DNA from: Vulcanimicrobiota bacterium
GTDB taxonomy: Bacteria; Vulcanimicrobiota; CADAWZ01; Ess09-12
Reading direction: 5' to 3'
Length of the DNA stretch: 38,781 nucleotides
Assembly (NCBI GenBank): GCA_031082125.1
Contig: JAVHLM010000011.1
Span: 159,054 to 197,834 of the forward strand
Made by a program: the position numbers and the translations under genes. Numbering within the stretch: the first letter of the stretch is position 1; each line of letters opens with the position of its first letter. The notes under the pieces were generated by a model. That model was given only the letters and a program-made list of their open reading frames with translations, made no database searches and was not told the origin of the DNA. Shown here piece after piece: positions 1-36,630 of this stretch.

Positions 1-380
1 CAGGTGCAGCCACAGGTGCAGCCACAGGTGCAGCCACAGGCAAGGCCACAGGTGCAGGCACAGCCACAGGTGCAGGCACAGCCACAGGTGCAGCCACAGG
101 CAAGGCCACAGGCAAGGCCGCAGGTGCAGGCACAGCAACAGCCGCAGGTGCAGGCACAGGTGCAGCCGCAGGCAAGGCCACAGGTGCAGGCTCAGCCACA
201 GGCTCAGCCACAGGCGCAGGCACAGCAACAGCCACAGGCAAAGCCACAGGTGCAGCCGCAGGCAAAGCCACAGGTGCAGCCACAGGTGCAGCCACAGGTG
301 CAGCCACAGGTGCAGCCCCAGGTAAGACCCCAGGTGCAGGCGCAGCCACAGGTGCAACCACAGCAGCAGCCCCAGACCCA
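1..380 (+). repeat. In-frame tandem array of ~30 imperfect 12-nt units (CAGGTGCAGCCA / CAGGCAAGGCCA / CAGGTGCAGGCA) encoding (PQVQ/PQAR/AQVQ)n
   Basis: The 12-nt periodicity is visible by eye from nt 1 to about nt 370. It translates to PQVQPQVQPQARPQ... in the frame of the HD-GYP ORF. Confidence 0.9.
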
Positions 381-23126: not shown

Positions 23127-25739
23127 GTGATGAATATCACAGACTTGTTCCGCAGATTTGCTACAATGAGTGCAAGACCAGAAAGAATCCAGAGGGAAGA
23201 AAGGAATACAATGTCAGAGAATACGCGAGAGAGAGATTTGGTGCTTGCCCCGAATGAATATGCCTTTATCCTCGATGAGACCAAGGGCCATGTGATTGCT
23301 TACGTGGGCCCCTTCAAAACAAGCCTTGCCAACACCGACAGGCCCGTCATTTTCGAGGAGCTGTCACGGAAGTTCAAGAGATGCAGCCTTGAAGAGGCGA
23401 TCACTCAGTTCCCCTTCGCCGAGGAGGGGTGGTACATAGTGCTTGAAAACCCGGTGAAGGAAGGAGATGAAGAGCATCCCAAAAGCGGCCCCGCGAGCCT
23501 TCCGAGGCTTGCGCCGGGAAGAAAGGTGAACATTCCCGGTCCCGTCACCTTCCCTCTGTGGCCCGGCCAGGTGGCCCATGTCATCCAGGGGCATCACCTG
23601 CGCTCAAACCACTATCTCGTGATCAGGGTTTACAACGAGGAAGCGGCGAGAGATAACTGGGCCAAGGCAGTCATCAAGCCCCAGAAAGCCTCTCCCGCGG
23701 GGGCACCTGATATAGACAAGGGAAAAGCCGATGATTCCGGCAAGCCGGCAGGCGGCACCACGGTGAAGCCCGATGTGGAGATACCCGATCTCACCATCGG
23801 CAAGCTCCTCGTGGTGAAAGGAACGGATGTCTCTTTCTATATCCCTCCCACGGGCATTGAGGTGGTAAGGGATGAAAACGGGAACTACGTGAGAGAGGCT
23901 GTCACCCTGGAACGGCTTGAATACTGTATCCTCCTGGACGAGGACGGCAACAAGCGCTTCATCGAAGGCCCTGCCGTGGTATTCCCGAGGCCCACGGAGC
24001 GGTTCGTCGAGAAGAGCGGGGCCAGGAAGTTCAAAGCCATTGAGCTGAACGAGATAAGCGGCCTCTACATCAAGGTGATAGCACCCTACAGGGATGAAAA
24101 GGGCACGGAATACAAGGTGGGAGACGAGCTTTTCATCACAGGCAAGGACCAGATGATCTACTTCCCGAGGCCCGAGCATGCCATCATCAAGTACGGCGAC
24201 CAGGAGATCCACTTTGCCGCAGCAATCCCCACGGGTGAAGCCCGGTATGTCCTCAACAGGGTCTCGGGGGAGATCAGCCTGAAAAGGGGCCCCTGCATGT
24301 TCCTGCCCGATCCCCGCAAAGAGGTGAACATCCAGCGGATCCTGGAGCCCAAGATCGTGCAGCTCTATTATCCCGGCAACCAGGAAGCCCTGGAATACAA
24401 CCTGAAGCTCATGGATCTCAAGAGGATCACCAGGAGCGACTTCATTGACACCACGCAGGTAAAGAAGGAGATGGCGGGCCAGGGAGCCGACAAAGGGCGC
24501 AAGCCTCTTTCAAGAGGAAGGAGCGAGGCTGAGGAAGCCCCGGACAGCTTCGCGGGCGATGACTTCAACAGGAAACAGGGATTCACGCCGCCCAGGACCA
24601 TCACCATGGACACCAAGTATGAGGGCGCTGTCTCGATCAACGTGTGGACCGGCTATGCCATCATGGTGGTGAACAGGACAGGAGAGCGCAAGGTCGTAGT
24701 CGGCCCCCAGACCCATATCCTTGAATTTGATGAGATGCTCGAGGCCATGAAGCTCTCCACGGGCACTCCCAAGAGCGACGACAACGTCATCAGGACAGTG
24801 TACCTGAGGGTCCTCAACAACAAGGTCTCCGATATCGTCAACGCCGAAACCCAGGACCTCTGCCAGGTGAGCATCCAGATCTCATACCGCGTCAATTTTG
24901 AAGGAGACCCCGTGAAATGGTTCGACGTGGAGGATTACGTGAAGTTCCTCACCGAGCACATGCGATCCGTTCTGCGCAATGCCATAAAGCACTATGGCAT
25001 CGAGGAGTTCTATGCAAATTCGATCAAGATAATAAGGGATACCATTCTCGGGACTGCCGGCGAGGAGTCGAAGCGCCCGGGGAAGCGCTTTGACGAGAAC
25101 GGCATGCGCATCTATGACGTGGAAGTCCTGGGAGTTGGAATCGGCGACGAGGTGATAGCGGGCCTTCTCATGGAGGCGCAGCACTCGGTGGCCCAGCAGA
25201 CCATCAGTATCACCAAGGAGCAGAAGAACCTGGAGATGACCAGGAGGCTCGAGGAGATAAAGCAGCAGATAAGCGCCGCCCAGTCCGAGACGATGCTGAA
25301 GCATATCACGCTTGAGATAGCGGAAGTGGAGAAAACTCTTGAACTGAGCCTCTCGAAAATAAAAAGCGAGGTTGATGCCGCCAACCTGCGCCTCGCCTCG
25401 CAGCTTGAGCAGCAGGGCAGGCTCAGCGACATCGCCGAAGCAGAGCTTGACAGGGAGAGGAAGCATAAGGAGCAGGAAATGGAGTTTGCGCAGGAAGCCC
25501 TCAAGCAGCGCATTGAGGAGCTCGGCGCCCAGGTGAAGGCAGTAGTCGATAAGGCAGCGGCCGTATCGCCTGATTTCATCGCCGCCCTGCAGTCCTTTGC
25601 AGACAAGAGCCTCGCGGAAAAGATGGCCGACACCATGGCCCCGCTTGCGATACTCGGAGGCAAGAGCATCGCCGAGGTCTTCGCCCAGCTTCTGAAGGAC
25701 ACGCCGCTTGAAGAGGTGATAAAGAAGAGAGCGAAGTAA
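23127..25739 (+). CDS. Major vault protein (MVP) homologue, 840-870 aa
   Basis: The N-terminal repeats 'PNEYAFILDETKGHVIAYVGPFKT' and 'FPLWPGQVAHV' resemble the MVP 'PPYHYIHVLDQNSNV..VGPKTY' and 'FPLYPGEVLE' segments. The C-terminal shoulder and cap-helix-like coiled coil (…IKIIRDTILG…LEEIKQQISAAQ…) and the overall length also fit MVP. The likely true start is ATG 23214 (MSENTRERD), which has a purine-rich RBS. Confidence 0.7.
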   Translation: MMNITDLFRRFATMSARPERIQREERNTMSENTRERDLVLAPNEYAFILDETKGHVIAYVGPFKTSLANTDRPVIFEELSRKFKRCSLEEAITQFPFAEEGWYIVLENPVKEGDEEHPKSGPASLPRLAPGRKVNIPGPVTFPLWPGQVAHVIQGHHLRSNHYLVIRVYNEEAARDNWAKAVIKPQKASPAGAPDIDKGKADDSGKPAGGTTVKPDVEIPDLTIGKLLVVKGTDVSFYIPPTGIEVVRDENGNYVREAVTLERLEYCILLDEDGNKRFIEGPAVVFPRPTERFVEKSGARKFKAIELNEISGLYIKVIAPYRDEKGTEYKVGDELFITGKDQMIYFPRPEHAIIKYGDQEIHFAAAIPTGEARYVLNRVSGEISLKRGPCMFLPDPRKEVNIQRILEPKIVQLYYPGNQEALEYNLKLMDLKRITRSDFIDTTQVKKEMAGQGADKGRKPLSRGRSEAEEAPDSFAGDDFNRKQGFTPPRTITMDTKYEGAVSINVWTGYAIMVVNRTGERKVVVGPQTHILEFDEMLEAMKLSTGTPKSDDNVIRTVYLRVLNNKVSDIVNAETQDLCQVSIQISYRVNFEGDPVKWFDVEDYVKFLTEHMRSVLRNAIKHYGIEEFYANSIKIIRDTILGTAGEESKRPGKRFDENGMRIYDVEVLGVGIGDEVIAGLLMEAQHSVAQQTISITKEQKNLEMTRRLEEIKQQISAAQSETMLKHITLEIAEVEKTLELSLSKIKSEVDAANLRLASQLEQQGRLSDIAEAELDRERKHKEQEMEFAQEALKQRIEELGAQVKAVVDKAAAVSPDFIAALQSFADKSLAEKMADTMAPLAILGGKSIAEVFAQLLKDTPLEEVIKKRAK

Positions 25740-26901: not shown

Positions 26902-27746
26902 CTACGGTTTTTTTTCGGCAGGGAGCGTGAAGGCAGGGAAAAAATAGGCATAAAGGGTACGGATGGTGAAATTTTTCCAGTCAAGCCCGTCGGAGGCCTT
27001 TTTCTCGTAATCCCTGTGATAGGCAAGGGTTCTCTCCAGCACATGATCAAGGTTCACGCCGTAGAGAAGGTTGTCTGCATGGGCGGAAAATATGGTATGG
27101 ATTAAATAGCTCCTCTCGAGGGAAAAGCTCTTCAGCCTCGTGATGGACTCCTCTGCCTTGCTGCTTGCGGCCCTGTCCTGGCAGGGATCACCCTCAAAGA
27201 GCCACCAGTCGCCTGAGCACCATACTCCCCTGAAAACACAGTGAACATCGCCAAGAGAATGCTTGGGGCCGTAAATAAGAAAGAGAGGCTCACCGCCGAG
27301 GGTGAGCTCCAGGATATCAGAGAAGAAAATCTCGTTGAAGCTGGAGAGAAACCATTCCTTGCCGCTCTTCTCCTTCACCTCCGCCCAGGGGCTTCTTTTC
27401 GGCGCAAGGTGGCCCCTGGTCCAGTAATATTCAGACATCTTGAAAAAGAGAGGGGCCGAGTAATGGACCACAAAAAGAGCCTCTGGAAAGGCCTGCCTGT
27501 ACTCATGGATCGAGGCGGTATGATCCCAGTGGGGATGGGAGAAAAAGAGGTAACGGCATTTCCAGCGCCTCTTCTCGAGAGCCTTTTTCACCACCATTGC
27601 CGGGTGCTCGGCCCCTGTCGTGGGAGGAGGCATTTCAAAGACCGCGCACTCACCACCTGCCTGAAGGAGCCAGGCACCTACCTTCCAGGTGCTGAAACGA
27701 CCTGCAAGGAATATACCCTCTGCTTTTTCTTCCAGCTTGAAATCCA
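26902..27746 (-). CDS. MBL-fold metallo-hydrolase
   Basis: It has the 'FFSHPHWDHTASI' HxHxDH motif. The start was set at MDFKLEEK; the longer ORF beginning at 27855 has no RBS. Confidence 0.65.
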
Positions 27747-27805
27747 TTGTTTTTCTCTGGCCGGGGATTTTTCCTATTAGTTCTCTCTTGGTGCGGTGGG
27801 CCCCT

Positions 27806-27840
27806 TTATTTGGCAGGAAGGGAGGAAAATATGGTATAAT
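27806..27840 (+). promoter_or_regulatory. Putative sigma70-type promoter for the EcsC-like gene (TTGGCA ... TGgTATAAT extended -10)
   Basis: TGGTATAAT at 27832-27840 lies ~45 nt upstream of the ATG, and TTGGCA lies ~19 nt upstream of that. Both were read from the sequence. Confidence 0.3.
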
Positions 27841-27879
27841 GATGTGGTAAGACATGCCCTTGATATATGTGAAAAGGAG

Positions 27880-28749
27880 ATGCCTATGAACAGGGATTAT
27901 TTCATCGACTGGGCCGATTTTCTGGACGATGACGAGAAAAAGGCGTACGGCGAGATCCAGCAGTGGGAAGAGAGGCCCCCCTCGCAGCTTTCCCTCATGA
28001 AATCATTGACGGTGCCCCTTATCAACGAGGCAAGGAAGCTCTCGCCGGATCTTGCCGACAAGGTCGCCGCTGCGGTGAAGGAAGCCCTCACGTCCCTCAG
28101 GGACTACGCAGGGATGACTGTCATACCTGATTCCATTGAGAACAAGATCAAGGCCATTGCCTGCTCCATGCCCGCTTCAGGTGACGGCGCCGAGCTGTAC
28201 ACCCCCCTGGCATGCTTCGACAGGGCGGCAAGGGAATGCATACTCTTCAACACGGCCTTTGCCACCGTGGAGGGGGTGATGTCAGGAGCTCTCGGCATCA
28301 CAGGCATGCTCATTGACATCCCGATGCTCTACACGATGCTTTTCAGAGTCATTCAGGAAACGGGCCTCTGTTTCGGCTACTTCATCAACAGCCCCGAGGA
28401 GAAGCTCTACGTGATGAAAATCCTGGAGCTGGGCCACACTCCCGAGGACTCGGCGAGGAAGGAGGCCATAGGAGAGCTTTACACCCTCCACAAAGCCATA
28501 AGCGGGGGAGTATCCCTTAACACCCTTAAGGCAAAAGGCGCAATAACGGGCTTTGAGGCCGTCTCGGAAAAGATTGCCGCGGCCTTCTCCAGGAGAAGGC
28601 TGAGAAACATATTCATGCTCGCCGGGGGAATTCTCGGCGGAGCCGCGAACTTCGCCCTCACCCGCCAGGTGGCTGATGCCGCCTTCCATACCTACAGGAG
28701 AAGGTTTATCATGGACAGGGCCAGGGCCCGCATGAGCAAACGCCTCTAA
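27880..28749 (+). CDS. EcsC-family protein
   Basis: It has a glycine-rich amphipathic core 'GVMSGALGITGMLIDIPMLYTMLFRVIQETGLCFGYFINSPEEK'. The RBS AAGGAG precedes ATG 27880/27886. Confidence 0.45.
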   Translation: MPMNRDYFIDWADFLDDDEKKAYGEIQQWEERPPSQLSLMKSLTVPLINEARKLSPDLADKVAAAVKEALTSLRDYAGMTVIPDSIENKIKAIACSMPASGDGAELYTPLACFDRAARECILFNTAFATVEGVMSGALGITGMLIDIPMLYTMLFRVIQETGLCFGYFINSPEEKLYVMKILELGHTPEDSARKEAIGELYTLHKAISGGVSLNTLKAKGAITGFEAVSEKIAAAFSRRRLRNIFMLAGGILGGAANFALTRQVADAAFHTYRRRFIMDRARARMSKRL

Positions 28750-30239
28750 TACAGCCTGTTGGCAATTTTCGCGAGTTCTTCACCTACTGAGTTGTCCGTG
28801 GTGATCTCCTCAAAAGGTATGGAGCTTGTCTGGATCCCCCTGATGGCGGGCATCACCCTGGACCTGCCCTGTGAGGCGAGCTCCACCACTTTTTTCGCCA
28901 TCCTCTGGGTCAGGGCGATATCGATATTGTTGGGGCTCGCTCCCCTGATGTCCCTGGAGAAGGGCTCGCAGTATATCTTCATTCTGGTCTTGAGGCCCGC
29001 AGCGAGCAGCATATCCCTGAAATACTCGGCTGCGTTGCCGCAGAAGTTCTTCTCCTTCCTCTCCTCTTTCCTGTAGCCTTCGGCCACGACAATCACTGCC
29101 GATTCTTTTTCCTCGAGGGCCTTTGCTATGCGGGGAATGTCATACTCAAGGCCCGGGAGCACAGCCAGGTGTGCGCCGGCGCCGATACAGGAGTTGAGGG
29201 CGTGAAAGCCGCCCATGGCGCCCATCATCTCAACGATATAGCAGCGGTGATGAGTCCGCGCGTCGGCCATGTAGCAGCGCACCTTTTCCGAGCCCGCTTC
29301 CACGCCGGTATGCTGGCCGATTGTCTCGGTCCCATGGACATCGCTGTCGATGGTGACCGGCACGAAGAACACCTGGACATGGTCAGGCAGATGTGATGCA
29401 AAGGCCTTGAGCCCGCCGAAAGTGCCGTTCCCGCCCACGCCGATAACGATCTTCACATGGCGGCTCAGGGCGTTTTCCACGGCCTTTTTCTGGTTGGCTA
29501 CCTCCCTGAACTCCGGGAAGCGCTCGGACCTGAAATTCGCCCCGCGGGCATCGCGGAGCGGCGGTGTGAAGATCACGCCGGGAATGTGGTCAAAGAGGTT
29601 GAAAATCTTGGGATTATTGATGAGGCAGCGGAAGTCCTCATCCTTCCCGCTCACCAGCGAGCGGTAGCCCTCGGCAGTGATAAAGACCTGCCTTCCCGCC
29701 TTTTCCAGGGCTTCGGTGAGAAAGGCGATAATGGGGTTCTTGCCGGGGGCGCATCCGCCGTCCTCTATGATAAGGACATCCATGAACCGGTAAAGATCTG
29801 CTTCTTCTTGGAGATATGTGGCGATGTGCTTGCTGAATTCGCGGTAAATGCTCAGCATGGCTTTCGATGAGAGGATATCGTCACGAGTGATGAGATCATA
29901 TTCAATGCAGATTACCACGCTCTCTTCCAGGGCTTTCAGGATCCCCTTGACATTCTTTTCCTCAAAGAGGGGCAGGAGGCCGAATAGCTCGCCTTTATCA
30001 AAGGTCGTGGTGATTCGCCCGAACATCTCATAGGCGAAGATTCCCTTTTCCACCACATAGGCGCACTTCGCCTTTTCTCCCTGCTGGTACACATACTCGC
30101 CTGCGGAGTATTTCTCGCGGTAGAGGTGGGCGGCAAATTTCTCCATCTGCTCCCGCTCCAGGCCATTGAAGAACGGGGTGCTCAGCAGAAAATCCACCAT
30201 GGTGGGATCATCGGCCTTGAAATCAATTCTTTCTGACAT
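28746..30239 (-). CDS. Fusion of a cyclic-nucleotide-binding domain with a phosphofructokinase-family domain that has altered catalytic motifs
   Basis: The N-terminus 'TFDKGELFGLLPLFEE...' is a CAP/Crp-type cNMP domain. The downstream segments 'GGCAPGKN', 'FRSERFPEFRE', 'VIGVGGNGTFGG', 'VPVTIDSDV' and 'EMMGAMGG' correspond to PFK 'GGDAPGMN', 'ARFPEFRD', 'GGDGS', 'TIDND' and 'MGR', with substitutions. Confidence 0.65.
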   Translation of the reverse strand: MSERIDFKADDPTMVDFLLSTPFFNGLEREQMEKFAAHLYREKYSAGEYVYQQGEKAKCAYVVEKGIFAYEMFGRITTTFDKGELFGLLPLFEEKNVKGILKALEESVVICIEYDLITRDDILSSKAMLSIYREFSKHIATYLQEEADLYRFMDVLIIEDGGCAPGKNPIIAFLTEALEKAGRQVFITAEGYRSLVSGKDEDFRCLINNPKIFNLFDHIPGVIFTPPLRDARGANFRSERFPEFREVANQKKAVENALSRHVKIVIGVGGNGTFGGLKAFASHLPDHVQVFFVPVTIDSDVHGTETIGQHTGVEAGSEKVRCYMADARTHHRCYIVEMMGAMGGFHALNSCIGAGAHLAVLPGLEYDIPRIAKALEEKESAVIVVAEGYRKEERKEKNFCGNAAEYFRDMLLAAGLKTRMKIYCEPFSRDIRGASPNNIDIALTQRMAKKVVELASQGRSRVMPAIRGIQTSSIPFEEITTDNSVGEELAKIANRLY

Positions 30240-30327
30240 ATTCTGTTTTTCCTTTCCTCTCATTCCTTGCTCTGATAAACTCATTGAAGCCTGCAGTCAA
30301 TTCGGATTTTCCCTGCTCCCTGGCAGC

Positions 30328-31713
30328 TTACCCGAGAAAGCCCAGAATTTTTCGAAATGCCGGGCTCATGGCGGGATAAGGGGGATACCTGAAGGAGGGA
30401 TCGAGAAGCAGCGAGCGCTCCATCACGCTTTTCCTGTGGGAGAAGGTGTCAAAGGTATATTTCCCATGATAGGCCCCCATCCCGCTCTGCCCCACTCCAC
30501 CGAAGGGAAGCTCCCTGGTGCTTATGTGCACCAGCGTGTCGTTTATGCACATGCCCCCTGAAGAGGTGCCCCTGATAACCTTCCGCTGGGTCTCCCTGTC
30601 TTCGCTGAAAAGGTAAAGAGCGAGGGGCTTGGGCCTTTTTCTTATCTCGGCAAGCACCTTATCCAGGTTGTCAAAATAGATCACCGGAAGCAGCGGCCCG
30701 AAGATTTCCTCCTCCATGATTTTACTGTCCCACGTCACCTCGTCAATAACAGTAGGCGCAATATAGCGCGTCGCCGCATCCGCCGCGCCCCCGGTGATAA
30801 TGCGGCCCTCTTCCATAAGGGCCGTGAGACGCTTGAAATGCCTTTCATTGATGATTCTTGAATAGTCGGGGGATTTCTTCGGGTCGTCGCCGAAAAAGTC
30901 CGCAACGGTCTTTTGTATCAGCTTGATGATCTCGTCCGCTATGCCATCGTAAAGCAGCAGGTAATCAGGTGCCACGCAGGTCTGGCCGGCATTGAAGAAC
31001 TTACCCCAGACGATCCTCTTCACGGCTGCTTCAAAATGAAAGTTTCTGTAGAAGATACAGGGGCTCTTCCCCCCCAGCTCAAGGGTGAGGGGCGTGAGGT
31101 GCCTTGCCGCCGCCTCCATCACTATTCGCCCCACGGCGGGATTTCCCGTATAAAACAGGTAGTCAAGGCGCTCCTGAAGGAGATACCCGGACTCCTCGAC
31201 GCCGCCTTCAACGACATCTATATAGCCGGGCTCAAAATACCGGGGGATAAGGCGGGCTAAAAGCGACGAGGTATGGGATGATATCTCCGAAGGCTTCAGC
31301 ACCACGCAGTTTCCCGCAGCTACAGCCCCTACGAGGGGCGCCATCATGAGCTGAAAGGGATAGTTCCAGGGCCCTATGATCAGGGTTACTCCGTAGGGCT
31401 CGCTGTGGAGCGAGCTGGAGCCGGGTGAGAGAAGAAGGGGCGTTCCCACGGCTTTCGGCTTCATCCAGGAATGCAGGCAGGTGAGGGCATTCTCAATCTC
31501 ACCCTGCACGAAGAGCAGCTCGCCGAAAAACGTCTCGCTCTGCGGCCTGCCGAGATCGGCCCTGAGGGCCTCGTATATCTCGTTCTCGTGGCGGGTCACA
31601 AGCTCCCTGAGGGCTTTCAGCCTCTCGTGCCTGAACTGATACTCCCCGGTCTTTCCCGATTCAAAGAACGACCGCTGCCGCCTGATAACGGCTTCAATCT
31701 CCTGCTGTGTCAT
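30328..31713 (-). CDS. Aldehyde dehydrogenase family protein (class-3-like)
   Basis: It has 'LELGGKSP' and 'FFNAGQTCVAPDY' (the catalytic Cys). The RBS CAGGAGA precedes the ATG. Confidence 0.8.
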   Translation of the reverse strand: MTQQEIEAVIRRQRSFFESGKTGEYQFRHERLKALRELVTRHENEIYEALRADLGRPQSETFFGELLFVQGEIENALTCLHSWMKPKAVGTPLLLSPGSSSLHSEPYGVTLIIGPWNYPFQLMMAPLVGAVAAGNCVVLKPSEISSHTSSLLARLIPRYFEPGYIDVVEGGVEESGYLLQERLDYLFYTGNPAVGRIVMEAAARHLTPLTLELGGKSPCIFYRNFHFEAAVKRIVWGKFFNAGQTCVAPDYLLLYDGIADEIIKLIQKTVADFFGDDPKKSPDYSRIINERHFKRLTALMEEGRIITGGAADAATRYIAPTVIDEVTWDSKIMEEEIFGPLLPVIYFDNLDKVLAEIRKRPKPLALYLFSEDRETQRKVIRGTSSGGMCINDTLVHISTRELPFGGVGQSGMGAYHGKYTFDTFSHRKSVMERSLLLDPSFRYPPYPAMSPAFRKILGFLG

Positions 31714-31887: not shown

Positions 31888-32925
31888 ATGAAAGGATGCA
31901 GATTCGGCTCCCACCGGGTGATTGAACCTCAGGGGGTTCTCCCCCAGCCGGCCCAGAGAATTGATAACACCATGGAGATAAAGGACAACGAGATCCTGCT
32001 GGACGTGATACGCCTTAATATTGACTCGGCCTCGTTCCACCAGATTGTAGAGGAGGTGGGCAGGGATGAGCAGAAAGTGGCCGACAGGGTGCTCTCAATC
32101 GTGGCGGCCAGGGGAAAAATGCACAATCCTGTTACTGGCTCGGGGGGCATGCTCATTGCCAGGGTAGCAAAGATAGGGGCCGACCTCAAGGGAAAGATCA
32201 CACTCCATGAGGGAGACAAGATAGCGACCCTCGTATCGCTCTCCCTCACCCCACTCAAGATTCACAGGATCAAGAAAGTGCTGCTGGATCAGGACCAGGT
32301 GGAAATTGAAGGGCAGGCCGTGCTCTTTGAGAGCGGCGTCTATGCAAAGCTCCCCGATGACATGTCGGAGACGCTGGCCCTCTCGATCCTGGACGTGGCA
32401 GGGGCCCCTGCCCAGGTCAAAAGGCTCGCAAAGAAGGGACAGACCATATTCATACTGGGCGCCGGCGGGAAGTCCGGCCTTCTCTGCACGGCCATGGCGC
32501 GGGATATAATGGGGAAAGAGGGTAAGATTATCGGGATGGTCCACAGCGAGCGCTCGGTAAAAACGGCTGAAAAGCTTGCCATGGCCGATGTCCTCTTCAA
32601 GGCGAACGCCACCAATGCCCTGGAAGTCTACAATGAGCTCCACAGGCTCACCGACGGCAAAATGGCGGACCTTGTCATCAACTGCGTGAACGTGCCCGAC
32701 ACCGAGATGACTTCGATACTTGCCAGCAGGGACAGAGGCACTGTCTATTTCTTCTCGATGGCCACCAGCTTTACCAAGGCGGCCCTTGGTGCCGAGGGCA
32801 TAGGCTACGACGTGGACATGATCATCGGAAACGGCTATTGCAGGGATCATGCCGACATCTCCCTCGACATCGTGAGAAAATACCCGGTGCTCAGGCAGAT
32901 TTTCCAGGAAAAATTCTCAAAATAA
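31888..32925 (+). CDS. kdd: L-erythro-3,5-diaminohexanoate dehydrogenase-like (lysine fermentation Kdd)
   Basis: The N-terminus 'MKGCRFGSHRVIEPQGVLPQPA' and the Rossmann 'ILGAGGKSG' fit Kdd. It lies immediately upstream of kamA and has a strong AGGAGG RBS. Confidence 0.55.
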   Translation: MKGCRFGSHRVIEPQGVLPQPAQRIDNTMEIKDNEILLDVIRLNIDSASFHQIVEEVGRDEQKVADRVLSIVAARGKMHNPVTGSGGMLIARVAKIGADLKGKITLHEGDKIATLVSLSLTPLKIHRIKKVLLDQDQVEIEGQAVLFESGVYAKLPDDMSETLALSILDVAGAPAQVKRLAKKGQTIFILGAGGKSGLLCTAMARDIMGKEGKIIGMVHSERSVKTAEKLAMADVLFKANATNALEVYNELHRLTDGKMADLVINCVNVPDTEMTSILASRDRGTVYFFSMATSFTKAALGAEGIGYDVDMIIGNGYCRDHADISLDIVRKYPVLRQIFQEKFSK

Positions 32926-32954
32926 AAACAGCACTAAAGGAAAGGGATACCATC

Positions 32955-34217
32955 ATGCAGACTCATCATACTCAGTACAAACCGTGGCAGCACATCACCG
33001 ACAAGGATTGGTACGACTGGAAATGGCAGCTTGCGAACCGGATCACGACCATGAAGCAGCTCAGCGAGCTCATCAGGCTCAAGAAGGAGGAGGAGGAGGG
33101 CCTCATGCATGCCCTAAGAACCCTCAGGATGACTATCACCCCCTATTATTTCAGCCTTATCGATCTCAGAAATCCATATGATCCCATAAGGAAGCAGGCC
33201 ATTCCCACCATCAGGGAGCTTCACGTGAATCCCCATGATCGCCAGGATCCTCTTGAGGAGGATGTGGATTCACCGGTGCCGGGCCTTACCTACCGGTACC
33301 CCGACAGGGTCCTGCTGCTGGTGACCGACATGTGCTCAATGTACTGCCGCCACTGCACCAGGCGCCGCATGGCCGGCGAAAAGGACAGAACGCTGCCGAT
33401 GGATCAGATCCGCAGCGCCATCGATTATATCAGGAAGACTCCCGCCATAAGAGACGTCCTTATCTCGGGCGGTGATCCCCTCGTGATGGCCACCTCGAGG
33501 CTCGAGCAGATAATCCAGCTTATCAGGGACATCCCCCACGTGGAGATTATCCGCATCGGGAGCCGCGCACCCGTGGTGCTTCCCATGCGCATTGACAACG
33601 AGCTGGTGAGCATGCTCAAGAAATACCATCCCATTTACGTGAACACCCATTTCAACCACCCCCAGGAATTCACCGCCGATTCACAGGCGGCCCTGGCAAG
33701 GCTCGCCGACGCAGGGATCCCCCTCGGGAACCAGTCCGTGCTGCTGAGGGGCATCAATGACAATGCCGACGTGATGAAAAAGCTCATCCATCTTCTGCTG
33801 AAAAACAGGGTAAGGCCCTATTACATTTACCAGTGCGACCTCTCCAAGGGAATCAGCCACTTCAGGACTCCAGTAAGCGTGGGCATCCAGATCATGGAGT
33901 CCCTGCGGGGCCACACTTCAGGGATAGGCGTCCCCACTTACGTCGTCGATGCGCCGGGCGGCGGCGGCAAGATCCCCGTCATGCCCAATTACGTCATATC
34001 CCATGGACATAACAGGGTCATCCTCAGGAATTACGAGGGGCTTATCGTGTCTTACCCCGAGCCTGAAGACTACACTTACAGCAATGGCAACTTCACAGGG
34101 GTTATTGATGAGATTCACAAGTCCAAGGAGGGCATCATCACCCTCATGTCAGGGGATGATATTATCATAGAGCCCAAGAATCTTGACAGGAGGCGCACGC
34201 AGAGCCACTCAAAATAA
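32955..34217 (+). CDS. kamA: Lysine 2,3-aminomutase (radical SAM)
   Basis: It has 'CSMYCRHCTRRR' CxxxCxxC and a KamA-type length. The conserved 'YCRHC' context is present. Confidence 0.85.
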   Translation: MQTHHTQYKPWQHITDKDWYDWKWQLANRITTMKQLSELIRLKKEEEEGLMHALRTLRMTITPYYFSLIDLRNPYDPIRKQAIPTIRELHVNPHDRQDPLEEDVDSPVPGLTYRYPDRVLLLVTDMCSMYCRHCTRRRMAGEKDRTLPMDQIRSAIDYIRKTPAIRDVLISGGDPLVMATSRLEQIIQLIRDIPHVEIIRIGSRAPVVLPMRIDNELVSMLKKYHPIYVNTHFNHPQEFTADSQAALARLADAGIPLGNQSVLLRGINDNADVMKKLIHLLLKNRVRPYYIYQCDLSKGISHFRTPVSVGIQIMESLRGHTSGIGVPTYVVDAPGGGGKIPVMPNYVISHGHNRVILRNYEGLIVSYPEPEDYTYSNGNFTGVIDEIHKSKEGIITLMSGDDIIIEPKNLDRRRTQSHSK

Positions 34218-34232: not shown

Positions 34233-34583
34233 TCAGGGAAGATCGATGCCCCCCGGGGACCAGGGATTGCATCTCATGATGCGCCAGGCTCCCCGGGCAG
34301 TACCGCGCAAAAAGCCGTGCTTTTGTATTGACTGCCTGGTATATTCGCTGCAGGAAGGGGTATAACGGCATATCCTTATGCCATGGGCCTCGTATATCCC
34401 GCGGGAGACAGAGTCCTGGTATAATTCGATGACCGCCACACCCGCCCTTGCGCTGAATTGATGCGAAGGGCTCTGGAGATTGTCAAGCAACAGAAGCAGC
34501 AGGGCGGCGCAGAAAAACCACGTGACAGCCCTGCGGCTGCTCTTCCCCGACGCGCTCTCTCTCCTGCATTTTTTGACAGGCAC
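34233..34583 (-). CDS. yidD: YidD-family membrane protein insertion efficiency factor, with an N-terminal hydrophobic extension
   Basis: It has the 'CRYTPSCSEYT...HG...G...RIMRCNPWSPGGIDLP' YidD signature. The true start may be internal. Confidence 0.55.
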   Translation of the reverse strand: MPVKKCRRESASGKSSRRAVTWFFCAALLLLLLDNLQSPSHQFSARAGVAVIELYQDSVSRGIYEAHGIRICRYTPSCSEYTRQSIQKHGFLRGTARGAWRIMRCNPWSPGGIDLP

Positions 34584-34635
34584 CCCTTCTCCCGCGCTGA
34601 TGATCCCTCACTTCCCCCTGGGTCAATGCCCTGGA

Positions 34636-35403
34636 TTACCTTCCAATGATGTATCTCTTGGGATCGATTTTGGTTCTCAGGACTTCAAGCTCTTCCGCAG
34701 TGGGAGCAGGCGTCTGACTGATATCGGAGGCCTTGAGGAGCTCGAATCCCGTGTTTTCCTGGACATTTTCAAAGGTACAGCCAGGATGAATCATCTCGAC
34801 GCGCATCCTCTTGGTCTCTTCATCATAGCCCATCACCGCCATGTCGGTGATTACCTTGTGAGGGCCCGTCCCTGCGGGGAGACCTGCCTTTTCCCTTGCG
34901 CCCGGCCCGTCGAGGAAGCCCGGCGTGGTGATGAAATCGACGCGCTTTACAAATCTCCTGCTGTCCTGCGGGGTAATCACCATGACCTTCCAGCAGAAGG
35001 AGGCGAAATCATTGGCGCCACCCGATCCGGGGAAGCGCACCTTGGGCCTGTTCCAGTCCCCGATGACAGTGGAGTTGAGGTTGCCGTACATATCTATCTG
35101 CGCGCCGCCCAGGAAGGTATAATCCACGAGCCCCCTCTGGCATGTCTCCATTATCTCGCACATGCCGCTCGCCATGATGGCCTTGTGGAAGGTCCTTGAA
35201 TCGCCCACCGAGATAGGCATCGTGGGCAGCACGGGAGAGATCCCCCCCGCCTCGAACATCACCACAAGGGAAGGCGAATGGATGTGCTGGGCAAGCATTG
35301 CAGCGGCGCAGGGAGCGCCCGTGCCGACTCCCACGGTGGCCCCGTCATCAAGGAACCGTGAAGCGGCTACAATCATCATTTCCATGGTGTTATATTCTGT
35401 CAT
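34636..35403 (-). CDS. CoA-transferase subunit B (glutaconate CoA-transferase GctB-like)
   Basis: 'FLGGAQIDMYGNLNSTVIGDW...RFPGSGGAND' is collinear with GctB. The start at MTEYNT lies 1 nt after the gctA-like stop. Confidence 0.75.
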   Translation of the reverse strand: MTEYNTMEMMIVAASRFLDDGATVGVGTGAPCAAAMLAQHIHSPSLVVMFEAGGISPVLPTMPISVGDSRTFHKAIMASGMCEIMETCQRGLVDYTFLGGAQIDMYGNLNSTVIGDWNRPKVRFPGSGGANDFASFCWKVMVITPQDSRRFVKRVDFITTPGFLDGPGAREKAGLPAGTGPHKVITDMAVMGYDEETKRMRVEMIHPGCTFENVQENTGFELLKASDISQTPAPTAEELEVLRTKIDPKRYIIGR

Positions 35404-35404
35404 G

Positions 35405-36406
35405 TCACTCACTCCTTTGCGGCGATTCGATAAGGAACTCCTCGCGGCGGATCTCCTGCAGCCTTTTGATGCCGCCGCATACCTCGAGATACTCGTTGAA
35501 ATCTCTGGTCTTGAGGATATGCTTTCCGAGGAACTCTGCGAACCGGGCCTCGTCCTTTTCCGTGCTGAGCCAAAGCGCGATATGGTCCTCATCGGAAAAA
35601 TACTCGTAGGGCATATTCCCGGGGTAGCTCCCGTAGGGCACTTCACAGACGGCATCGACAAGGTAGAAAGGAATAGTGGTGAGGGTGGGATCGCGCCTTA
35701 TCTCCTCATTGGGAACAAGGCGCTCGCATGTGATGATCAGGTGCTTTGCCGCCCTGGCAAGCTCAATATCAGCTACCGATATGCCCTTGAACCTTGCATT
35801 TCCATACACATCGGCCTCATGGACATGGATCGCGGCCACATCAGGCCACAATGCGGGGCAGAGCACATAAAGCTGTCCCGTGAAGGGGCATTTTATCACT
35901 TTCGAGGCGCTGTGCTTGAAGGTATCAGTTCCCATCATCACCCGGGCAGGGAGAAAGGAGACTCCCATCGCGGCAGCTTTGAAGCGGAGGGCCAGGGAGT
36001 AATTGGTCCACTCGCAGCACTGCACCTTGCCGCTTGCCATGTAGCGCCTTGCATTGGGTGAAAGCCCCCTGGCCTCGAGGCCCACAATATAGGCGATATC
36101 ACAGCGGTTGAAAACCTCGCCTGCCGAGAGTATCTGGAAATCATGGGTCGAAGTGTGGCCGGCGAAGCCCATATTCTTCCTCCCCTGCCTCACTATTTCA
36201 TGACAGACAGCCGTAGGGATCCTGTTAGCGCCAAAACCACCGATGGCGAGATAGTCGCCGTCATGGACAAAGAGCGACACCGCCTCTTTGACGGACATCA
36301 CCTTGTGGTAAAGGGACCGCTTTTTCTTTCGAAAAAACTCCCTGGCCTTATCTGCGTCGGGCTCTGCGAAAAGAGGGCCCTGGCCGCTTTCAATGACCTC
36401 GTGCAT
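35405..36406 (-). CDS. CoA-transferase subunit A (glutaconate CoA-transferase GctA-like)
   Basis: 'GDYLAIGGFG...' and 'ITCERLVPNEEIRRDPT' match the GctA 'TIVTCEEIISDEEIRRDPT' region. The RBS GGAAGGAAG precedes ATG 36406. Confidence 0.75.
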   Translation of the reverse strand: MHEVIESGQGPLFAEPDADKAREFFRKKKRSLYHKVMSVKEAVSLFVHDGDYLAIGGFGANRIPTAVCHEIVRQGRKNMGFAGHTSTHDFQILSAGEVFNRCDIAYIVGLEARGLSPNARRYMASGKVQCCEWTNYSLALRFKAAAMGVSFLPARVMMGTDTFKHSASKVIKCPFTGQLYVLCPALWPDVAAIHVHEADVYGNARFKGISVADIELARAAKHLIITCERLVPNEEIRRDPTLTTIPFYLVDAVCEVPYGSYPGNMPYEYFSDEDHIALWLSTEKDEARFAEFLGKHILKTRDFNEYLEVCGGIKRLQEIRREEFLIESPQRSE

Positions 36407-36630
36407 AACGCTTCCTTCCTTTCCTGTAGTGCCCCTGGCCCGCCCGCCACAGGAATACAGGACCTGCGGGCAGCATTCGGGAGTCGGGGAATCTCTGGTA
36501 TTTCTGATAAAAAGATTCTTTCTCCAGGGCTCCCCTTCCTGCGGTATTGAAGAGAGGCCCATCCCATGCTATAATGGTAGGGGCCGGCAAGATACGGGGC
36601 TCAATTTACGGGAAAAGAGGATATCCCTGG

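What the first reader, a model, noticed from the sequence alone, without database searches (positions are those of the whole stretch)
28746..30239. cNMP-binding domain fused to a phosphofructokinase-fold domain with mutated catalytic motifs
The PFK-like domain keeps the fold landmarks (ARFPEFR, TID-D, VVAEG). It replaces GGDAPG with GGCAPG, GGDGS with GGNGT, TIDND with TIDSD, and the F6P-binding MGR with MGA. Together with an N-terminal Crp-type nucleotide-binding domain, this suggests either a nucleotide-regulated kinase of altered specificity or a pseudo-enzyme signalling protein. It sits between the c-di-GMP/PilZ-rich region and the fermentation genes.
Basis: seen in the sequence. Interest (0 to 1): 0.5.

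Follow-up and report, generated by a model that had tools for sequence, protein, structure and literature searches.

The report
Sensor-fused divergent phosphofructokinase-like protein
This gene encodes a member of a well-conserved but unstudied bacterial protein family in which an unusual phosphofructokinase-type domain is fused to a signal-sensing domain (cyclic-nucleotide-binding or two-component receiver), which suggests direct signal control of a sugar-phosphate kinase; this copy's nucleotide pocket looks broken.

Summary
The CDS at 28746..30239 (-) encodes a 497-aa protein with an N-terminal cNMP_binding domain (Pfam E 9e-11) and a C-terminal PFK domain (E 3.6e-43; predicted fold TM 0.90 to S. 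aureus PFK). It carries GGCAPG, GGNGT, TIDSD and MMGA.

These changes are not private decay. They are the signature of a conserved family found in at least 129 species genomes, almost all MAGs. In that family D12C, N128S, T156D and H249R are invariant, D103N is found in 71/84 members and R171A in 78/84. The catalytic base D127 and D129, T125, R72, G11, G104, R162, E222 and R252 are invariant. The classical ADP/PEP effector site is gone.

The same PFK-like module is fused either to a cNMP-binding domain (48/84) or to a response-regulator receiver domain (31/84). No curated NCBIfam model passes its cutoff, and I found no paper on this architecture; sources label it "6-phosphofructokinase".

My best reading is an active, ATP-type sugar-phosphate kinase (fructose-6-phosphate-like substrate) whose allosteric control has been replaced by an N-terminal sensor domain.

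One twist concerns the window copy. It has lost both signature cNMP-contact residues (Glu to Leu88, Arg to Val97), which most relatives keep, so classical cAMP/cGMP control of this particular protein is doubtful. Function is untested.

The parts
28746..30239 (-). Complete CDS (497 aa plus stop) of the CNB-PFK-like protein
   Evidence: ORF. It is 100% identical to P0001. An RBS-like AGGAAAGGA lies upstream of ATG 30239. It aligns end to end with family members of 497-499 aa.
29895..30116 (-). Cyclic-nucleotide-binding (CNB) fold domain, residues 42-115 (Pfam core)
   Evidence: PF00027, 42 bits, E 9e-11. PKG/PKA-R hits in the PDB. The AF2 model shows a beta-sandwich at residues 40-113.
29931..29984 (-). 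Degenerate phosphate-binding cassette FGLLPLFEEKNVKGILKA (residues 86-103). The signature Glu is replaced by L88 and the signature Arg by V97.
   Evidence: Column counts over 120 relatives give E in 100/120 and R in 107/120; the window has L and V. Coordinates verified.
29808..29867 (-). Long C-helix and linker (residues 125-144) joining the sensor domain to the first strand of the PFK module
   Evidence: The AF2 model has helix H125-144 followed by strand E155-159 just before GGCAPG; pTM 0.83.
28878..29777 (-). PFK-fold module (Pfam residues 155-454; the fold continues to the C-terminus)
   Evidence: PF00365, 148 bits. Foldseek TM 0.90, rmsd 2.5 to S. aureus PFK 5xz8.
29742..29759 (-). GGCAPG nucleotide-binding loop; G11 kept, D12 replaced by Cys (invariant in the family)
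   Evidence: C in 84/84 and 120/120 members.
29505..29525 (-). ERFPEFR: R72 and the F76 and R77 ATP-site residues retained
   Evidence: R72 in 84/84, F76 in 83/84.
29421..29435 (-). GGNGT: D103 replaced by N, G104 kept (ATP-type, not the D of PPi-PFKs), S105 replaced by T
   Evidence: N in 71/84 and D in 13/84; G104 in 84/84.
29340..29354 (-). TIDSD: T125, catalytic base D127 and D129 retained; N128 replaced by S. The preceding residue is V where ATP-PFKs have G124 and PPi-PFKs have K124.
   Evidence: T, D, S and D each in 84/84; V124 in 82/84.
29217..29228 (-). MMGA: M169 and G170 kept, R171 replaced by A
   Evidence: A in 78/84, R in 5/84. Sister Xenobiia sequences P0004 and P0006-8 have R.
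29076..29090 (-). VVAEG: the E222 sugar-phosphate ligand is retained. It is followed by a family-specific insertion of about 11 residues containing the invariant R394.
28938..28958 (-). SRDIRGA: H249 replaced by R (invariant), R252 retained
   Evidence: R249 in 84/84, R252 in 84/84.
30328..31713 (-). Aldehyde dehydrogenase immediately upstream on the same strand; a conserved neighbour within class Xenobia only
   Evidence: Pfam Aldedh E 4e-83. Orthologues sit upstream of the family gene in L006, L007, L013 and L018. No terminator-like site lies between the two genes.
26902..27855 (-). Metallo-beta-lactamase-fold protein. It is the conserved downstream neighbour in Xenobia; here it is separated from the gene by an EcsC gene (27796-28749, + strand).
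   Evidence: Pfam Lactamase_B. Orthologues lie directly downstream in L006, L007, L013 and L018. There is only a weak glyoxalase-II-like PDB hit.

Best explanation
The gene encodes a member of an uncharacterised, strongly conserved subfamily of the phosphofructokinase (PF00365) superfamily. In this subfamily a divergent but probably catalytically competent ATP-type sugar-phosphate kinase module acts as the output domain of a one-component sensor.

What is shown:
- The PFK fold is present.
- The phosphoryl-transfer core (G11, R72, T125, D127, D129) and most fructose-6-phosphate ligands (R162, E222, R252, M169) are retained.
- The classical ADP/PEP effector site is lost.
- The N-terminal sensor domain has been exchanged during evolution (cNMP-binding or receiver).

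What is inferred:
- The module still phosphorylates fructose-6-phosphate or a very similar ketose phosphate, using ATP.
- The sensor domain, through its long C-helix that runs straight into the strand preceding the GGCAPG nucleotide loop, switches activity or oligomerisation. The trigger would be cNMP binding in CNB-type members and Asp phosphorylation in REC-type members. This would replace metabolite allostery with signal-transduction control of upper glycolysis.

In this particular Xenobia (Eremiobacterota) copy the cNMP pocket has lost its Glu and Arg. The protein is therefore probably either constitutive or controlled by something other than cAMP/cGMP.
For: - Domains and fold.
- Family size and spread: at least 120 close relatives at 48-64% identity and 129 species genomes across Eremiobacterota, Calditrichota, Chlorobi-like Bacteroidota, Desulfobacterota, Bdellovibrionota, Planctomycetota and a Leptospiraceae MAG.
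- Residue table over 84 species-level members: G11, R72, G104, G108, T125, D127, D129, R162, M169, G170, E222 and R252 are invariant, and there is an aromatic residue at Y41 and F76. G104 and V124 lack the D104/K124 signature of PPi-PFKs.
- D103 and R171 toggle: the N/A, D/A, N/R and D/R combinations all occur, 165/12/9/4. The family's function therefore tolerates both states, whereas the catalytic base never varies. That pattern is the opposite of what a pseudo-enzyme would show.
- Purifying selection: the PFK module has a mean identity of 62-66% across phyla, against 29-36% for the sensor domain.
- Effector-site residues are replaced: R21A, R25E/Y, R154M/L, E187H.
- Sensor swap: cNMP_binding in 48/84 and Response_reg in 31/84 on the same module. 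The Desulfobacterota REC-type members form a clade with no CNB members inside it.
- Central-carbon neighbours occur in some clades. PPDK lies directly downstream in Chloroherpetonaceae and Thermochlorobacter. A 6PGD-like gene is nearby in Xenobiia. A PPi-PFK lies 3.3 kb away in L019.
- Degenerate PBC in the window copy.
Against: - There are no biochemical data for any member.
- D103 (Mg2+/ATP ligand) and R171 (transition-state and 1-phosphate ligand) are non-canonical in most members, including this one. From memory of the E. coli mutagenesis literature, changes at these sites reduce but do not abolish activity; I could not retrieve a paper to cite.
- H249R, G124V, the invariant Cys at position 12 and two family-specific insertions could mean a different acceptor or donor.
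- The family scores far below every curated PFK equivalog cutoff.
- The patchy distribution with high identity across phyla, and coexistence with a bona fide PPi-PFK in L019, suggest an accessory rather than housekeeping role.
- There is no conserved gene neighbourhood across phyla.
- I could not test whether host genomes carry another PFK.
Confidence: 0.5

Rival explanations
1. A kinase of altered specificity. The module is an active phosphotransferase, but its physiological acceptor or donor is not F6P/ATP. Candidates include another ketose or heptulose phosphate, or a product that is itself a regulatory metabolite. On this reading the family would be a new enzyme activity used as a signalling output.
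For: - Family-invariant, non-canonical residues line the active site: C12, T105, V124, S128, D156, R249, and A171 in most members.
- There are two conserved insertions, residues ~198-232 and ~389-402, the latter with invariant R394.
- The bit-score gap is clear: family at 338 bits or more, a stand-alone sister clade at 160-187, and canonical PFKs below 100.
- It coexists with a genuine PPi-PFK in L019.
- Its use as an output domain of REC and CNB sensors is typical of signalling enzymes.
- The distribution is patchy, about 129 of 185,579 species genomes.
Against: - The residues that bind the 6-phosphate and sugar of F6P in canonical PFK (R162, R252, E222, M169; R243 as K/R in 54/84) are conserved. 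The ligand must therefore be very F6P-like.
- No conserved neighbouring genes point to another pathway.
- Positions 12, 124 and 128 also vary among bona fide PFK subfamilies. This is my own knowledge and was not tested here.
Confidence: 0.27
2. A pseudo-enzyme or metabolite sensor. The PFK-like module binds a sugar phosphate and/or nucleotide but does not catalyse transfer. The protein would relay metabolic state, in the way the C-terminal half of eukaryotic PFK-1 or the trypanosomatid PGK-like-CNB protein does.
For: - D103N and R171A are found in most members, including the window protein.
- There is a precedent for a catalytically dead glycolytic-kinase domain fused to a CNB domain, in trypanosomatid flagellar PGKL (PMC7729029).
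- From my own knowledge, the C-terminal half of eukaryotic PFK-1 has turned its catalytic site into an effector site.
Against: - The catalytic base D127 and D129, T125, R72 and the G11 and G104 loops are invariant in 84/84 members across seven or more phyla. Pure binding would not need them.
- D103 and R171 revert to or retain canonical residues in several lineages.
- There is no partner protein or DNA-binding or other output domain to which a signal could be relayed.
- There is no conserved neighbouring gene.
Confidence: 0.15
3. An ordinary housekeeping 6-phosphofructokinase, as the database label says. The substitutions would be neutral and the N-terminal domain a minor add-on.
For: NCBI and JGI name it 6-phosphofructokinase. 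The PFK fold and catalytic base are present. It is a stand-alone gene, sometimes next to PPDK.
Against: - It scores below every curated PFK cutoff, for example 115.7 against 371 for PFKA_ATP and 144.8 against 253 for PRK03202.
- The effector site is lost, and a dedicated sensor domain is always present and has been swapped in evolution.
- It occurs in only about 0.07% of species genomes.
- It coexists with a real PPi-PFK in L019.
Confidence: 0.08

Closest known systems
Bacterial ATP-dependent 6-phosphofructokinase (PfkA; E. coli 1PFK, G. stearothermophilus 3PFK/4PFK, S. aureus 5XZ8)
   Same: - Same fold (TM 0.90).
- Shared residues: the G11 loop, R72/F76 in the RFPEF motif, the G104/G108 ATP-type loop, T125-I-D127-x-D129, R162, M169-G170, E222 and R252.
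   Different: - Only 21-25% identity.
- D12C, D103N, S105T, G124V, N128S, T156D, R171A and H249R.
- The ADP/PEP effector site is replaced (R21A, R25E, R154M, E187H).
- Two insertions.
- An N-terminal sensor domain of about 150 aa.
- It fails the curated NCBIfam cutoffs.
PPi-dependent phosphofructokinases (Pfp; e.g. PRK14072-type as in L019 1474-2664)
   Same: It belongs to the PFK superfamily. An Asn at position 103 also occurs in the active-type GGNDS motif of the L019 PPi-PFK.
   Different: It lacks the D104 and K124 that mark PPi use (here G104 and V124). It scores only 35.5 bits against the PRK14072 cutoff of 273.
cNMP-regulated bacterial enzymes with an N-terminal CNB domain (e.g. the cNMP-sensing EAL enzyme Bd1971, PDB 6HQ2-6HQ7; mycobacterial cAMP-dependent protein acetyltransferase)
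   Same: The logic is the same one-component design: a CNB domain followed directly by an enzymatic output domain. The Bd1971 CNB domain is a detectable sequence hit (E 7e-4).
   Different: The output here is a PFK-fold module, which I could not find described. The window copy lacks the PBC Glu and Arg that those proteins use to bind cNMP. The acetyltransferase comparison is from my own knowledge.
Trypanosomatid flagellar PGK-like protein (PGKL): PGK-like domain plus CNB domain
   Same: It is a glycolytic-kinase-type domain fused to a CNB domain, with non-canonical catalytic residues (PMC7729029).
   Different: The kinase fold is different (PGK, not PFK) and the domain order is opposite. It is eukaryotic. 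PGKL has lost its catalytic residues wholesale, whereas this family keeps the catalytic base and most ligands.
Crp/FNR-family transcription factors
   Same: The N-terminal CNB beta-sandwich and C-helix (weak NCBIfam CRP hit of 22.9 bits; Crp-family PDB hit 4ev0, E 3e-4).
   Different: There is no C-terminal helix-turn-helix; the C-helix leads into a PFK module. It is not a member.

Membership tests
PFK superfamily (Pfam PF00365) | Match to the PFK domain HMM above the gathering threshold, and a PFK fold | tested here: met
   148.4 bits against a cutoff of 30.9. Foldseek TM 0.90 to 5xz8.
Canonical ATP-dependent 6-phosphofructokinase (PfkA equivalog) | Score above the curated equivalog or subfamily cutoffs (TIGR02482, PRK03202, TIGR02483) | tested here: not met
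   115.7 against 371.35; 144.8 against 253; 122.7 against 430.55.
Canonical ATP-dependent 6-phosphofructokinase (PfkA equivalog) | Catalytic base D127 with T125 and D129 (TIDND motif) | tested here: met
   T, D and D are invariant in 84/84; only N128 is replaced by S.
Canonical ATP-dependent 6-phosphofructokinase (PfkA equivalog) | Mg-ATP ligand D103 (GGDGS) and transition-state ligand R171 (MGR) | tested here: not met
   The window has N271 and A341. In the family, N is found in 71/84 and A in 78/84.
Canonical ATP-dependent 6-phosphofructokinase (PfkA equivalog) | F6P ligands R162, R243, H249, R252, E222 | tested here: inconclusive
   R162, R252 and E222 are invariant. R243 is R in the window but K/R in only 54/84 members. 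H249 is replaced by R in 84/84.
Canonical ATP-dependent 6-phosphofructokinase (PfkA equivalog) | ADP/PEP allosteric effector site (R21, R25, R154, E187, K213) | tested here: not met
   R21A, R25E, R154M and E187H; only the K213 position stays basic.
Canonical ATP-dependent 6-phosphofructokinase (PfkA equivalog) | F6P 1-kinase activity | not testable with these tools
   This needs an enzyme assay or genetic complementation.
PPi-dependent phosphofructokinase | D104 and K124 (GGDD/PKTIDND) and a score above the Pfp cutoffs | tested here: not met
   G104 in 84/84 and V124 in 82/84. PRK14072 35.5 against 273; PFKA_PPi_Ttgales 83.7 against 550.
Cyclic-nucleotide-binding domain (Pfam PF00027) | Match to the cNMP_binding HMM above the gathering threshold | tested here: met
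   42 bits against 27.5.
Functional cNMP receptor (PKA/PKG/CAP-type pocket) | Phosphate-binding cassette with the conserved Glu (ribose 2'-OH) and Arg (cyclic phosphate) | tested here: not met
   The window has L88 and V97. Relatives have E in 100/120 and R in 107/120. Actual ligand binding was not tested.
Crp/FNR transcription factor | C-terminal helix-turn-helix DNA-binding domain | tested here: not met
   No HTH domain is present; the C-terminal 340 aa form a PFK module.
Sensor-fused PFK-like subfamily defined here (CNB- or REC-PFK) | N-terminal sensor domain plus a PFK module with GGC[AS]PG, GG[ND]GT, TIDSD, EMMG[AR], AEGY and SRD[IV]RG | tested here: met
   All motifs are present. The protein is 48-64% identical over its full length to at least 120 members. 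The module scores at least 338 bits within the family, against less than 100 bits to canonical PFKs.

The most novel reading that the evidence does not exclude
The PFK-like module is not a glycolytic PFK. It is instead a previously unrecognised signalling-output enzyme: a kinase with new substrate or product chemistry, defined by the invariant Cys12, Asp156 and Arg249 and the N103/A171 pair. Bacteria would have wired it to both cyclic-nucleotide and His-Asp phosphorelay inputs, making it a new class of one-component and two-component effector acting directly on central-carbon or regulatory sugar phosphates.
Probability: 0.25. Interest if true: 0.8.

Novelty: new variant of a known kind. Interest (0 to 1): 0.55.

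Why it matters
Bacterial PFK is a textbook example of metabolite allostery (ADP/PEP). This family appears to have discarded that effector site and attached signal-transduction input domains instead: cNMP-binding in some lineages, a two-component receiver in others. If the module is an active kinase, it would be a direct post-translational link from second messengers or phosphorelays to upper glycolysis. I found no description of such a link for bacteria in the searched literature.

It would also add a new enzymatic output domain to the census of response regulators and cNMP receptors. There is a practical consequence too. Hundreds of database entries labelled '6-phosphofructokinase' may be mis-assigned or over-assigned, which affects metabolic reconstructions of uncultured phyla such as Xenobia, Calditrichota, Chloroherpetonaceae and Desulfobacterales.

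The natural D103/N and R171/A toggling, and the naturally degenerate cNMP pockets, offer ready-made variants for mechanistic work.

Tried and rejected
- **Conserved operon partners.** I clustered all ORFs of 86 loci. The only 'conserved' clusters were antisense ORFs inside the gene itself, which are artefacts. Real neighbours are conserved only within clades: ALDH and MBL in Xenobia, PPDK in Chloroherpetonaceae, ProC and FTHFS in Desulfobacterales, UvrB and others in Calditrichia. None helps identify the substrate.
- **The MBL-fold neighbour as a class II cNMP phosphodiesterase.** Only a weak glyoxalase-II-like hit (E 0.003) and no NCBIfam family. Not supported.
- **Co-occurrence with canonical PFKs.** Only L019 carries one within the fetched flanks.
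- **Exact-sequence lookup of the window protein's contig.** Not on record.
- **AFDB architecture survey by Foldseek.** The library was unavailable.
- **Literature.** Nine searches for CNB-PFK or REC-PFK fusions, and for open-access papers on the PFK active-site residues, returned nothing relevant except the trypanosomatid PGK-CNB analogue.
- **Context of the stand-alone sister clade (P0136).** Uninformative.
- **D103/R171 charge-compensating covariation.** The association is weak (Fisher p = 0.018 without phylogenetic correction) and all four combinations exist. I do not rely on it.
- **The longer 512-aa ORF start (30284).** Rejected in favour of 30239, on the RBS and family alignment.
Full report
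**1. What is there**

The region 28746..30284 (-) is a single long ORF.
- It gives 497 aa, the length of essentially all relatives.
- It is 100% identical to an NCBI protein from a "Candidatus Eremiobacteraeota bacterium" MAG.
- It is preceded by AGGAAAGGA, whereas the upstream ATG at 30284 has no such site.

Pfam places a cNMP_binding domain at residues 42-115 (42 bits; cutoff 27.5) and a PFK domain at residues 155-454 (148 bits; cutoff 30.9). Sequence search of the PDB hits bacterial ATP-PFKs with the C-terminal two-thirds (E 7e-21) and PKG/PKA regulatory domains with the N-terminus (E 9e-8). An AlphaFold2 model built on a 59-sequence alignment is confident (pLDDT 88, pTM 0.83). It superposes on S. 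aureus, L. delbrueckii, G. stearothermophilus and E. coli PFKs with target-normalised TM scores of 0.84-0.90.

**2. The substitutions are a family signature, not decay**

A search of 5.8 billion proteins returned at least 120 full-length relatives of 491-547 aa at 48-64% identity, nearly all with both Pfam domains. A scan of one genome per species (185,579 species) found 129 species with a relative. Almost all are MAGs: Xenobia (Eremiobacterota), Calditrichota, Chloroherpetonaceae/Thermochlorobacter and other Bacteroidota/Chlorobi-like bins, Desulfobacterales, Bdellovibrionales, a PVC bin and a Leptospiraceae bin. The cultured planctomycete Ca. Uabimicrobium amorphum also carries one.

I aligned 84 species-level members with E. 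coli and G. stearothermophilus PFK. Results below use E. coli literature numbering.

| Class | Positions |
|---|---|
| Invariant, canonical | G11, R72, G104, G108, T125, D127, D129, R162, M169, G170, E222, R252 (aromatic at Y41 and F76) |
| Invariant, family-specific | D12C, S105T, N128S, T156D, H249R |
| Nearly fixed | G124V (82/84), D103N (71/84; D in 13), R171A (78/84; R in 5) |

Across 196 non-redundant sequences the D103 and R171 positions occur in all four combinations: N/A 165, D/A 12, N/R 9, D/R 4. The sister Xenobiia lineage (P0004, P0006-8) has N/R.

The PFK module averages 62-66% pairwise identity across phyla; the sensor domain averages 29-36%. This is the pattern of an enzyme under strong purifying selection. 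It is not the pattern of a relic.

**3. It is a distinct clade of the PFK superfamily**

No NCBIfam PFK model reaches its cutoff: best is PRK03202 at 144.8 against 253, and PFKA_ATP scores 115.7 against 371. The same holds for REC-type and other members.

A full HMMER scan of 1.84 billion cluster representatives with the PFK module alone gave three tiers:
- Family members at 338-549 bits.
- A sister clade of stand-alone proteins of about 375 aa at 160-187 bits (34-36% identity). Their motifs are related but more variable: GG[LDN][AS]PG, GG[DN]GT, S[TAIV]D[SN]D, MMG[NR].
- Canonical PFKs below about 100 bits.

The signatures that distinguish PPi- from ATP-dependent PFKs (D104, K124) are absent (G104, V124). 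The ATP-site residues (G11, Y41 replaced by F/Y, R72, F76, G108) are kept. The classical ADP/PEP effector site is gone: R21A, R25E/Y, R154M/L, E187H.

**4. The sensor domain is interchangeable**

Members from Desulfobacterales and Bdellovibrionales matched the query only from about residue 127 onward. Their N-termini are response-regulator receiver domains, for example L071 with Response_reg at 91 bits.

Scanning all 84 members gave PFK in 84/84, cNMP_binding in 48 and Response_reg in 31. In a neighbour-joining tree of the PFK module, the Desulfobacterota REC-type sequences form a clade with no CNB-type member inside. The same unusual PFK module therefore serves as the output of two different input domains. 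This is the strongest argument that the family is a signal-regulated effector.

I found no paper describing either architecture. The nearest published analogue is the trypanosomatid flagellar PGK-like protein that carries a CNB domain (PMC7729029).

**5. This copy's cNMP pocket is degenerate**

The family consensus phosphate-binding cassette is FGEIALIDARPRTGTVRA. The Glu is present in 100/120 members and the Arg in 107/120. In the window protein the cassette reads FGLLPLFEEKNVKGILKA, with Leu88 for the Glu and Val97 for the Arg.

Its closest relatives (P0002 and P0003 at 64% identity; P0004-8) keep both residues. A second Xenobia subclade (P0009-15, P0025, P0027) has also lost them. The window's N-terminal domain is also more divergent than average: 29% identity to relatives, against 36% among the relatives themselves.

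From established knowledge of CAP/PKA/PKG-type domains, these two residues contact the ribose 2'-OH and the cyclic phosphate. I therefore infer that canonical cAMP/cGMP binding is unlikely here. The fold remains and could bind something else, or act as a constitutive structural or regulatory element.

**6. Genomic context**

There is no neighbour conserved across phyla (ORF clustering over 86 loci). Clade-level synteny does exist:
- **Xenobia:** the order is aldehyde dehydrogenase, then this gene, then an MBL-fold protein (L006, L007, L013, L018 and the window). In the window an EcsC-family gene sits on the opposite strand between this gene and the MBL gene. No terminator-like site separates the ALDH gene from this gene.
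- **Chloroherpetonaceae/Thermochlorobacter:** pyruvate phosphate dikinase follows directly on the same strand.
- **A second Xenobiia lineage:** a 6PGD-like gene lies nearby.
- **One Deltaproteobacteria MAG (L019):** a bona fide PPi-PFK (PRK14072, 453.6 bits against a cutoff of 273) lies 3.3 kb away. The family can therefore coexist with a canonical PFK.

These links are compatible with a role in central carbon metabolism but do not prove it.

**7. Most likely mechanism**

The steps that are shown: the PFK fold; the retained phosphoryl-transfer core and F6P-type ligands; the loss of the metabolite effector site; the always-present, evolutionarily swapped N-terminal sensor; and a long C-helix (residues 125-144) running into the strand that precedes the GGCAPG loop.

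The steps that are inferred:
- The module is an ATP-type kinase for F6P or a very similar ketose phosphate.
- The sensor domain gates activity or oligomerisation, by cNMP binding in CNB-type members and by Asp phosphorylation in REC-type members.
- The window copy, lacking the PBC Glu and Arg, is constitutive or responds to another cue.

I put this reading at about 0.5. The rivals are:

| Rival | Confidence |
|---|---|
| Same scaffold but altered substrate or donor, possibly a genuinely new signalling enzyme | ~0.27 |
| Non-catalytic sugar-phosphate sensor | ~0.15 |
| Plain housekeeping PFK | ~0.08 |

**8. Novelty and verdict**

It is less unusual because the catalytic base and most ligands are intact and the architecture recurs in hundreds of sequences labelled "6-phosphofructokinase". 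It is more unusual because the module is a dedicated signalling output with interchangeable CNB and REC inputs and a lost classical allosteric site, and because this particular copy has a crippled cNMP pocket.

I classify it as a new variant of a known kind (PFK superfamily), uncharacterised, of moderate to good interest (0.55). The key missing tests are whole-genome co-occurrence with canonical PFKs and simple enzymology.

Noticed in passing
window 23127-25739 (+): An 870-aa ORF matches the eukaryotic major-vault-protein domains MVP_shoulder (E 1e-29) and Vault_3, plus SPFH/Band_7. A vault-protein-like gene in an Eremiobacterota MAG is unusual.
   Followed up: no
window 31888-34217 (+) and 34636-36562 (-): This is a lysine-fermentation gene set: L-erythro-3,5-diaminohexanoate dehydrogenase (NCBIfam KDD, 266 bits against a cutoff of 200), lysine-2,3-aminomutase-type radical SAM, and two CoA-transferase ORFs. 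Overlapping ORFs on both strands at 34480-36562 leave the gene calls there ambiguous.
   Followed up: partly
window 27796-28749 (+): An EcsC-family gene lies convergent to the CNB-PFK gene, with its end overlapping that gene's stop by 4 bases. It interrupts the ALDH / CNB-PFK / MBL order that is contiguous in the other Xenobia genomes L006, L007, L013 and L018.
   Followed up: partly
window 1-2000 and 18001-20000: The AT skew is extreme: +0.45 and +0.33 at 1-2000, inside the N-terminal part of an HD-GYP-type (HD_5) protein, and -0.21 and -0.30 at 18001-20000, inside a subtilase-family ORF on the minus strand. This suggests strongly biased, possibly repetitive, coding sequence.
   Followed up: no
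L071 5644-7146 (+), L052 5608-7131 (+) and about 30 other loci (L053-L085): These are response-regulator receiver domains fused to the same PFK-like module (REC-PFK). They are mostly in Desulfobacterales and have no adjacent histidine kinase. Pyrroline-5-carboxylate reductase and formate-THF ligase are recurrent neighbours.
   Followed up: partly
L019 1474-2664 (-): A genuine PPi-dependent PFK (PRK14072, 453.6 bits) lies 3.3 kb from the family gene in a groundwater Deltaproteobacteria MAG. Its GGNDS motif shows that Asn at position 103 occurs in an active-type PFK when D104 is present.
   Followed up: partly
P0126 (581 aa), P0127 (676 aa), P0142 (873 aa): There are longer variants. P0126 and P0127 are CNB-PFK-like proteins with long low-complexity N- or C-terminal extensions and a retained R171 (EMMGR); they may be eukaryotic. 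P0142 fuses a sister-clade PFK-like module to DUF547 and a VTT membrane domain.
   Followed up: no
window protein residues C163, C351, C424 (and family C306, which is T in the window): Besides the invariant Cys in GGCAPG, three further cysteines are at least 90% conserved in the family.
   Followed up: no
L004 9708-12575, L026 7569-10406, L028 7658-10516 (+): Pyruvate phosphate dikinase lies immediately downstream of the family gene on the same strand in several Chloroherpetonaceae and Thermochlorobacter genomes.
   Followed up: partly
L001 12519-14579 and L087 16314-17500: In the second Xenobiia lineage the locus also carries another large CNB-domain protein (about 686 aa) and a Ser/Thr kinase with ankyrin repeats, within 3-7 kb of the family gene. 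This hints at a local cNMP-signalling neighbourhood there.
   Followed up: no
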